Shown: piece by piece, positions 39,702 through 40,157 of the stretch
How positions within the stretch are numbered: position 1 is the first letter of the stretch
How the letters are laid out: each line of letters starts with the position of its first letter
Origin: Escherichia phage vB_EcoM_VR25
Length of the DNA: 64,000 bases
Sequence record: NC_028925.1
Reading direction: 5' to 3' (one strand)
Translations under genes and position numbers: made by a program
Notes under the pieces: model-generated
What the model was told of the DNA's origin: nothing
The model's database searches: none
The model's input: only the letters and a program-made list of their open reading frames with translations

Positions 39702-40157
39702 CTACTTTAAATCCGCCGACCAATTTAATTTTAGCGGTTCTTTATATTCACGGTCCAAAACAACCGGAATCTGGACTTCTCCTTTATACGTCAAAGGACC
39801 AACATTATAAGATAATGTTATGTGAGGAGTGTAGTCCGGGAAATCATGTGTTGCGCCAATGGCTCGTGCATACATATGTCTGCAACTAAGATAATCTGAA
39901 TCCAGTACAAGAACCAGGGTACTACCATCATCGGTTTTCCATACTTCCAGGTGACCAGAGTTGGCTACTTCGAAACTGCCAGAGGCAACAACATATGGAA
40001 TATTTACTCTGGAATAACAAATAGTGGAATGGAATTTTTCACGAGGAACGGGATTAGGTACCTTAAGAGAGCGCTGAAGATTTTCCAGCGCATCAAGAGT
40101 TAATTCTGAAAATTTGGCTGCAACATAAAGTCCTTCAGAGACTTCATTTAATGTCAT
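39702..40157 (-). CDS. acb1: 2H-phosphoesterase-like protein at the gene 57B position (Acb1-like, anti-CBASS candidate)
   Basis: 151 aa, ATG start; two H-x-T/S motifs (FHSTI near residue 43, HITL near residue 112); immediately upstream of 57A as T4 57B is. Confidence 0.7.

What the first reader, a model, noticed from the sequence alone, without database searches (positions are those of the whole stretch)
39702..40157. Acb1-like 2H phosphoesterase at the gene 57B position (anti-CBASS candidate)
A 151-aa protein with two H-x-T/S motifs (FHSTI near residue 43, HITL near residue 112) sits immediately upstream of 57A, exactly where T4 57B lies. T4 gp57B has been described as Acb1, a nuclease that degrades cyclic-oligonucleotide immune signals. 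By position and motif spacing this looks like the orthologue, making it a known counter-defence gene rather than a novel one.
Basis: partly seen in the sequence, partly recalled or inferred. Interest (0 to 1): 0.5.

Follow-up and report, generated by a model that had tools for sequence, protein, structure and literature searches.

The report
Ordinary T4-type Acb1 anti-CBASS gene
This is the well-known phage gene 57B (Acb1), an enzyme that destroys the cyclic-nucleotide alarm signals of the bacterial CBASS immune system; it is intact, identical to a protein already in public databases, and holds no surprise.

Summary
The observation and the interpretation both hold. Window 39702-40157 (minus strand) is a 151-aa ORF. 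It matches Pfam PF23474 'Anti-CBASS protein Acb1' end to end (E=1.2e-59, 200.6 bits, cut-off 27) and the solved Acb1 structure 7T26 (E=7e-63).

It is 83% identical (126/151, no gaps) to T4 gp57B, the founding Acb1, and 100% identical to gp57B of phage vB_EcoM_VR7. The window itself is a VR7-like Gaprivervirus.

All nine residues named as functional by Hobbs et al. 2022 are present:
- the HxT/HxT tetrad (H43, T45, H112, T114);
- the base-stacking residues Y11, W73, F106 and W146;
- the adenine-contact residue E140.

The tetrad is invariant in an alignment reaching Vibrio, Aeromonas and Acinetobacter phages. Gene order (3, 1, 57A, 57B, internal-protein genes) matches T4.

One correction: 57B lies downstream of 57A in the direction of transcription, with a TAATG stop/start overlap, not upstream.

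Catalysis was not assayed here; it is inferred from orthology. At least one close relative's record already labels the gene 'anti-CBASS protein Acb1'. Verdict: already known, low interest.

The RefSeq/PHROG label 'RNA ligase' is a superfamily carry-over that Pfam does not support.

Side note: some phage portal proteins (psageK9, Pam3) carry a full C-terminal Acb1-like domain.

The parts
39702..40157 (-). acb1 (gene 57B) coding sequence, 151 aa plus stop codon: anti-CBASS 2H phosphoesterase
   Evidence: ORF. Pfam PF23474 Acb1 E=1.2e-59, covering 1-143 of 144 profile positions. PDB 7T26 Acb1 E=7e-63. 83% identical to T4 gp57B and 100% identical to VR7 gp57B.
40023..40031 (-). First catalytic HxT motif, H43-S44-T45 (T4 H44/T46)
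   Evidence: Codons CAT TCC ACT read. Mapped to T4 H44/T46. H and T are invariant in alignment A1. Catalytic role taken from PMC9117128.
39816..39824 (-). Second catalytic HxT motif, H112-I113-T114 (T4 H113/T115)
   Evidence: Codons CAC ATA ACA read. Mapped. Invariant in A1. Catalytic role.
39705..39728 (-). C-terminal lid segment (residues 144-151, T4 145-152), including stacking residue W146
   Evidence: Ungapped alignment to T4; 5 of 8 residues identical and the W is conserved. The lid function is described in PMC9117128.
40157..40387 (-). Gene 57A (tail-fibre chaperone), the gene directly 5' of acb1. Its stop codon overlaps the acb1 start (TAATG), so the two are probably co-transcribed and translationally coupled.
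   Evidence: Pfam GP57 E=9e-31. 67% identical to T4 gp57A. Junction sequence. Coupling is an inference from the overlap and from the lack of an obvious Shine-Dalgarno sequence.

Best explanation
The ORF encodes the orthologue of T4 gp57B, Acb1, in a VR7-like T4-type coliphage (Gaprivervirus). Acb1 is a small, metal-independent 2H phosphoesterase. During infection it binds the cyclic di- and trinucleotide second messengers made by host CBASS cyclases (3'3'-cGAMP, cUA, cAAA, cAAG). It stacks their bases between conserved aromatic residues (here Y11, W73, F106, W146) and closes a C-terminal lid over them. The HxT/HxT tetrad (here H43, T45, H112, T114) then cuts the 3'-5' phosphodiester bond 3' of an adenosine, through a 2',3'-cyclic phosphate intermediate. 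The linear products cannot activate CBASS effectors, so abortive infection is prevented. Shown here: identity of the protein, conservation of every published functional residue, and synteny. Inferred from the T4 and FBB1 orthologues: the enzymatic activity, the substrate range and the anti-CBASS phenotype. The gene is probably expressed together with 57A, given the TAATG overlap.
For: Pfam Acb1 full-length hit, 200.6 bits against a cut-off of 27. PDB 7T26/7T27 Acb1 E=7e-63 over residues 9-147. 83% ungapped identity to T4 gp57B. 100% identity to VR7 gp57B. All nine named residues conserved. Tetrad and Y11 invariant in eight sequences spanning Escherichia, Proteus, Acinetobacter, Aeromonas, Vibrio and Erwinia phages. 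Conserved gene order 3-1-57A-57B in T4, VR7 and five distant Straboviridae. A close relative, EAWsc9, is already annotated 'anti-CBASS protein Acb1'. Biochemistry and the T4 delta-acb1 phenotype come from Hobbs et al. 2022, PMC9117128.
Against: This particular protein has never been assayed, as far as these searches show. It carries 25 substitutions relative to T4, some in the lid and at residues 123-127, whose effect on substrate range is unknown. Single-sequence AlphaFold2 gave no usable model (pLDDT 37), so the fold rests on sequence homology to 7T26. NCBIfam and PADLOC have no model for it; that reflects library scope and is not evidence against.
Confidence: 0.93

Rival explanations
1. It is a generic 2H-family RNA enzyme (LigT-like 2'-5' RNA ligase or RNA 2',3'-cyclic phosphodiesterase) acting in RNA or tRNA repair, as the RefSeq and PHROG label 'RNA ligase' implies.
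For: PHROG 755 is labelled 'RNA ligase'. RefSeq names T4 and VR7 57B 'RNA ligase'. Some records say 'RNA 2',3'-cyclic phosphodiesterase'. The HxT/HxT motif is shared by the whole 2H superfamily (established knowledge).
Against: At E<=0.1 Pfam returns only the Acb1 family and no LigT or 2'-5' RNA ligase family. The T4 orthologue, 83% identical, was identified by activity-guided fractionation as the cGAMP-degrading enzyme, and its deletion sensitises T4 to CBASS. The nucleobase-stacking residues and the lid specific to cyclic-oligonucleotide binding are all conserved. The 'RNA ligase' name looks like an automatic carry-over from the superfamily.
Confidence: 0.03
2. It is an Acb1 homologue that has lost activity or shifted specificity, for example under selection from Panoptes-type guard systems that punish cA3 degradation.
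For: acb1 is disrupted in the Tevenvirinae phage Bas43, and Bas35 escapers of type II Panoptes carry acb1 mutations (PMC13577387). There are 25 substitutions relative to T4.
Against: The ORF is full length and ungapped against T4. Every catalytic and ligand-contact residue is kept. The identical or nearly identical (>=99%) protein is found in 29 phage records, which argues for purifying selection on a working gene.
Confidence: 0.03
3. It is a chance ORF, or the real feature lies on the opposite strand.
For: the ORF listing shows short plus-strand ORFs (50-64 aa) overlapping the region.
Against: The minus-strand product has E-values of 1e-59 to 1e-99 against curated and experimental references, and homologues in 1477 phage records. 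The plus-strand ORFs are short, mechanical and unsupported.
Confidence: 0

Closest known systems
Escherichia phage T4 gp57B = Acb1 (NP_049750.1), founding member of the family (Hobbs et al., Nature 2022)
   Same: 83% identical without gaps and of nearly the same length (151 vs 152 aa). It has the same nine functional residues and the same position between 57A and the internal-protein genes.
   Different: There are 25 substitutions, concentrated at residues 2-8, 123-127 and 145-148. T4 has a 4-nt ATGA overlap with 57A, whereas this window has a 1-nt TAATG overlap. T4 has a single ipI gene downstream; here there are four internal-protein-like genes.
Escherichia phage vB_EcoM_VR7 gp57B (YP_004063838.1), Gaprivervirus
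   Same: The protein is 100% identical. The surrounding 4 kb is 98.2% identical at the DNA level.
   Different: RefSeq labels it 'RNA ligase'. The 3' end of the neighbouring 57A differs, and VR7 has an extra small ORF (VR7ORF153c) in the downstream internal-protein block.
Erwinia phage FBB1 Acb1, crystal structures 7T26 (apo) and 7T27 (with 3'3'-cGAMP)
   Same: About 70% identical over 139 residues (E=7e-63). Same HxT/HxT tetrad and the same 2H fold by homology.
   Different: One-residue insertion after position 79. Position 73 is F instead of W, and position 106 is Y instead of F; both changes stay aromatic.
Poxvirus cGAMP phosphodiesterases related to Acb1 (Hobbs et al., Cell, as summarised in PMC12064943 and bioRxiv 10.1101/2025.06.06.658234)
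   Same: Reported structural and functional homology: a viral 2H-type enzyme that degrades a host cyclic dinucleotide immune signal.
   Different: These are eukaryotic viruses whose target is animal cGAS-like receptor (cGLR) signalling. I did not compare them at the sequence level here.
Portal-fused Acb1-like domains (Pseudomonas phage psageK9 gp70; cyanophage Pam3 portal gp3, PDB 8HDS)
   Same: Full-length match to Pfam Acb1 (E=1.9e-43), with both HxT motifs retained.
   Different: The domain forms the C-terminus of a Phage_portal_3 portal protein, not a free-standing early/middle gene product. It is only 29% identical to the window protein, and its function is untested.

Membership tests
Acb1 (anti-CBASS protein 1; Pfam PF23474) | Sequence scores above the curated family threshold over the full domain | tested here: met
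   200.6 bits against a gathering cut-off of 27. Residues 8-148 match profile positions 1-143 of 144.
Acb1 (anti-CBASS protein 1; Pfam PF23474) | HxT/HxT catalytic tetrad (T4 H44, T46, H113, T115) | tested here: met
   H43, T45, H112 and T114 are present and invariant in the 8-sequence alignment A1. Definition taken from PMC9117128.
Acb1 (anti-CBASS protein 1; Pfam PF23474) | Aromatic nucleobase-stacking residues (T4 Y12, W74, F107, W147) | tested here: met
   Y11, W73, F106 and W146 are identical to T4. Across the family, the columns of W73 and F106 (T4 W74, F107) stay aromatic, W/F and F/Y respectively.
Acb1 (anti-CBASS protein 1; Pfam PF23474) | Adenine-N6-contacting glutamate (T4 E141) and C-terminal lid (T4 145-152) | tested here: met
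   E140 is present. The lid is present at full length, with 5 of 8 residues identical to T4, including the W.
Acb1 (anti-CBASS protein 1; Pfam PF23474) | Compact 2H phosphoesterase fold | tested here: met
   Met by homology only: E=7e-63 and about 70% identity over 139 of 144 residues of the solved chain 7T26_A. An independent single-sequence AlphaFold2 model was unusable (pLDDT 37.4), so no fold search was run.
Acb1 (anti-CBASS protein 1; Pfam PF23474) | Orthologous genomic position in T4-type phages (3, 1, 57A, 57B, internal-protein genes, all on one strand) | tested here: met
   Same order in the window, T4, VR7 and five distant Straboviridae.
Acb1 (anti-CBASS protein 1; Pfam PF23474) | Metal-independent cleavage of 3'3'-cGAMP, cUA, cAAA and cAAG 3' of adenosine; no cleavage of cGG or cA4 | not testable with these tools
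   This is a biochemical property shown for T4 Acb1 and nine homologues. It is inferred here from 83% identity and a conserved active site.
Acb1 (anti-CBASS protein 1; Pfam PF23474) | Protects the phage from CBASS in vivo | not testable with these tools
   Shown for T4 delta-acb1. It needs a phage genetics experiment for this phage.
LigT / 2'-5' RNA ligase-type 2H enzymes (the 'RNA ligase' label in RefSeq and PHROG 755) | Significant match to a LigT or 2'-5' RNA ligase family model | tested here: not met
   The Pfam scan at E<=0.1 returned only PF23474 Acb1. NCBIfam returned nothing. The only support is the free-text label of PHROG 755.

The most novel reading that the evidence does not exclude
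The most novel reading still open has two versions. In the first, this Gaprivervirus Acb1 differs from T4 Acb1 in substrate range, through its 25 substitutions, several of them next to the lid and at residues 123-127. In the second, it acts as one unit of an enlarged counter-defence island together with the four capsid-targeted internal-protein-like genes directly downstream, some of which would be injected inhibitors of still-unidentified defence systems. Nothing in the data points positively to an altered Acb1.
Probability: 0.05. Interest if true: 0.3.

Novelty: already known. Interest (0 to 1): 0.08.

Why it matters
For annotation, it lets the gene be labelled correctly as anti-CBASS Acb1 rather than 'RNA ligase' or 'hypothetical protein', as many records still say. 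For phage biology or therapy, an intact acb1 predicts that this phage resists many CBASS systems that signal with adenine-containing cyclic di- or trinucleotides. Conversely, it should be vulnerable to Panoptes-type guard systems that fire when cA3 is degraded (PMC13577387). It opens no new question.

Tried and rejected
1. AlphaFold2 on the single sequence gave mean pLDDT 37.4, which is unusable. I ran no fold search, and the fold claim rests on homology to 7T26.
2. I deliberately did not spend the large-database searches (search for homologous proteins, the search of protein representatives, metagenome or genome scans). Identity to characterised and crystallised proteins had already settled the question.
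3. The sigma-70 promoter and terminator scan of 38900-42500 found 13 promoter-like and 4 terminator-like sites against 9.4 and 2.7 expected. That is not above chance, so nothing is assigned.
4. The T4 late-promoter motif TATAAATA occurs on the coding strand inside gene 1, 211 nt upstream of 57A. However, the window-wide count equals chance, and the site is not positionally conserved with T4, so I do not claim it as a promoter. A second copy at 39310-39317 overlaps the last codons and stop codon of the upstream ORF and may be coincidental.
5. The hairpin just after the acb1 stop codon has dG -15.9 kcal/mol, z=-1.68, and no U-tract. It is neither a convincing terminator nor statistically distinctive.
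6. NCBIfam and PADLOC scans returned no hits, which is uninformative.
7. The 'RNA ligase' reading is rejected (see the rival explanations).

Full report
**Observation.** The ORF listing shows an ATG-initiated ORF of 151 aa at 39702..40157 on the minus strand; the coordinates include the stop codon. I located their codons at 40023-40031 (CAT TCC ACT) and 39816-39824 (CAC ATA ACA) from the raw sequence.

One correction concerns wording. The adjacent 76-aa ORF at 40157..40387 (minus strand) is 57A (Pfam GP57 E=9e-31; 67% identical to T4 gp57A). Because both genes are on the minus strand, the candidate lies immediately downstream of 57A in the direction of transcription. The 57A stop codon and the candidate's start codon share one base (GAA TAATG ACA).

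**What it is.** The protein matches Pfam PF23474 'Anti-CBASS protein Acb1' over the whole domain: E=1.2e-59, 200.6 bits against a cut-off of 27, profile positions 1-143 of 144. It matches no other Pfam family at E<=0.1. Against all PDB sequences, the best hit is Acb1 of Erwinia phage FBB1 (7T26/7T27), with E=7e-63 over residues 9-147.

The result is 126/151 identities (83%), 91% positives, no gaps, E=3e-99 against T4 gp57B, NP_049750.1. The protein is 100% identical to gp57B of Escherichia phage vB_EcoM_VR7. The surrounding 4 kb is 98.2% identical to VR7 at the DNA level, so the window comes from a VR7-like Gaprivervirus (Straboviridae, Tevenvirinae).

tblastn finds homologues in 1477 phage records, of which 29 are at least 99% identical. 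One close relative, phage EAWsc9, already annotates the gene as 'anti-CBASS protein Acb1'.

**Defining features.** Hobbs et al. 2022 (PMC9117128) identified T4 gene 57B as Acb1 by activity-guided fractionation. From the FBB1 structures and T4 mutants they described:
- a compact 2H phosphoesterase fold;
- an HxT/HxT tetrad (H44, T46, H113, T115);
- nucleobase-stacking aromatics Y12, W74, F107 and W147;
- an adenine-N6 contact by E141;
- a C-terminal lid (residues 145-152).

The window protein aligns to T4 with a constant offset of one residue, and all nine named residues are identical: Y11, H43, T45, W73, F106, H112, T114, E140, W146.

I also aligned eight sequences: the window protein, T4, Proteus PM2, Acinetobacter fHyAci03, Aeromonas AS-gz, Vibrio D485, RB16 and the FBB1 crystal chain. 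Identity to the window protein goes down to 38%. The four tetrad residues and Y11 are invariant, and the columns of W73 and F106 stay aromatic. The 25 differences from T4 lie mostly at residues 2-8, 123-127 and 145-148, and none touches a named residue.

**Synteny.** In the window the minus-strand order is:
- gene 3 (41061..41660);
- gene 1, dNMP kinase (40387..41064; Pfam DNMK E=5e-77);
- 57A;
- 57B;
- a run of small internal-protein-like genes.

T4 has 3, 1, 57A, 57B, ipI and VR7 has the same order. The 3-1-57A-57B block is also kept in Proteus, Acinetobacter, Aeromonas, Vibrio and RB16-type phages. Orthology with T4 57B is therefore supported by both sequence and position.

**Mechanism.** Part of this is shown and part is inferred. 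Shown here: the protein's identity, its active-site and ligand-contact residues, and its synteny. Inferred from the characterised orthologues:
- The enzyme is metal-independent.
- It cleaves 3'3'-cGAMP, cUA, cAAA and cAAG 3' of adenosine, through a cyclic-phosphate intermediate, to linear products such as GpAp.
- It cannot cleave cGG or cA4.
- In this way it stops CBASS effectors from being activated; T4 lacking acb1 becomes sensitive to CBASS operons.

In T4, 57B/acb1 is reported to be expressed mainly in middle/late infection (bioRxiv 10.64898/2026.03.30.715471). In the window, the 1-nt stop/start overlap with 57A and the lack of an obvious Shine-Dalgarno sequence before the acb1 ATG suggest co-transcription and translational coupling with 57A. 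This is an inference. I could not assign a promoter.

**Rivals.** The 'RNA ligase' label (PHROG 755; RefSeq product names) reflects the 2H superfamily, to which LigT-type 2'-5' RNA ligases also belong. No LigT-type family is matched in Pfam or NCBIfam, and the orthologue's function has been established experimentally, so I reject this reading.

A degenerate or re-specialised Acb1 is conceivable. acb1 is a liability against Panoptes guard systems and is disrupted in some Tevenvirinae (PMC13577387). However, this copy is intact in every tested respect.

**Failed or uninformative attempts.**
- Single-sequence AlphaFold2 gave pLDDT 37, so the fold claim rests on about 70% identity to a solved structure.
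- The hairpin after the stop codon is not distinctive (z=-1.68, no U-tract).
- PADLOC and NCBIfam have no model for the protein.
- I did not use the costly whole-database protein searches, because they could not change the verdict.

**Comparison and novelty.** This is a member of the Acb1 family by every feature testable in silico. An identical protein is already in the public phage records (VR7 YP_004063838.1, GenBank and RefSeq). The finding is already known and ordinary. Its practical value is correct annotation, plus the prediction of CBASS resistance and Panoptes sensitivity for this phage.

**Noticed in passing.**
- The weakest tblastn hit led to Pseudomonas phage psageK9 gp70, a 600-aa protein next to the terminase. 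It combines a Phage_portal_3 domain (E=5e-89) with a complete C-terminal Acb1 domain (E=1.9e-43) that keeps both HxT motifs. The same domain is present in the cyanophage Pam3 portal protein, whose cryo-EM entry is 8HDS (residues 470-609, E=1.2e-32), in a Rhizobium phage portal, and under a 'prohead protease' annotation in a Ruegeria phage. Neither Hobbs 2022 nor the Pam3 structure paper mentions it.
- In the window itself, the four ORFs downstream of acb1 all begin with an MKT[YF]xEF-type N-terminus like T4 IPI. Apart from one weak longer match between two of them (28% over 71 residues), they share little else with each other or with IPI. This fits a variable block of capsid-targeted internal proteins next to acb1, the arrangement Hobbs et al. 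called an anti-defence island.

Noticed in passing
L009:52-1851 (Pseudomonas phage psageK9 gp70); also PDB 8hds_A residues 470-609: Some phage portal proteins carry a complete C-terminal Acb1-like 2H domain with both HxT motifs. In psageK9 gp70 this is Pfam Phage_portal_3 (E=5e-89) plus Acb1 (E=1.9e-43). The same domain occurs in the cyanophage Pam3 portal (E=1.2e-32), in a Rhizobium phage portal, and under a 'prohead protease' annotation in Ruegeria phage V10. Neither Hobbs 2022 nor the Pam3 structure paper mentions it. It could mean a virion-borne cyclic-nucleotide phosphodiesterase.
   Followed up: partly
window 38432-39674, minus strand: Four tandem small ORFs lie directly downstream of acb1: 77 aa, 99 aa, 90 aa, and 110 aa (121 aa if read from the first ATG). 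All start with an MKT[YF]xEF-like N-terminus resembling the capsid-targeting sequence of T4 internal protein I. Apart from one weak longer match (77-aa vs 110-aa ORF, 28% over 71 residues, E=5e-6), they share little else. Two are ip6-like and ip9-like. The 99-aa ORF (38720-39019; counterpart of VR7ORF154c, 'internal head protein' in RefSeq) has no Pfam hit. The 110-aa one is PHROG 3966 (unknown function) and is called 'profilin' in phage EAWsc9, which looks spurious. This is a variable block of probably injected proteins next to acb1.
   Followed up: partly
window 39641-39674, minus strand: The ORF at 39309..39674 probably starts at the second ATG (39641; MNIKTYNEF...). That ATG is preceded by GGAG, whereas the first ATG (39674) sits inside the stem of a hairpin just after the acb1 stop codon and has no Shine-Dalgarno sequence. 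VR7's annotation uses the first ATG and EAWsc9's uses the second.
   Followed up: partly
window 40157-40200, minus strand (3' end of 57A): The C-terminal tail of gp57A in the window (…LTAESADEE, 76 aa, TAATG junction) resembles T4's tail more than VR7's (…VADQEDKEDDAE, 79 aa, ATGA junction). Yet the flanking DNA is about 98% identical to VR7. This is a small mosaic patch at the 57A/57B junction.
   Followed up: partly
window 41746-42420, minus strand: A 224-aa ORF sits between gene 3 and gene 2. Its VR7 counterpart is annotated as a MobB-like homing endonuclease. T4 has no gene at this position, and the ORF has no Pfam hit at E<=0.01.
   Followed up: no
window 38666-38719 compared with L002:3721-3999: The window lacks VR7ORF153c, a 279-nt hypothetical gene that lies between ip6 and VR7ORF154c in VR7. 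This is an indel within the internal-protein block and accounts for the two-piece megablast match.
   Followed up: no
window 40598-40605 and 39310-39317, minus strand: T4 late-promoter-type TATAAATA motifs lie on the coding strand, one inside gene 1 (211 nt upstream of 57A) and one just upstream of the ip9-like ATG. The window-wide count equals the chance expectation, and the gene-1 site is not positionally conserved with T4, so they remain unassigned.
   Followed up: yes
T4 NC_000866 57B, VR7 NC_014792 57B, and many other records: RefSeq and PHROG 755 label Acb1 orthologues 'RNA ligase'. This is a misleading carry-over from the 2H superfamily, and most GenBank records still call the gene 'hypothetical protein'.
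   Followed up: yes
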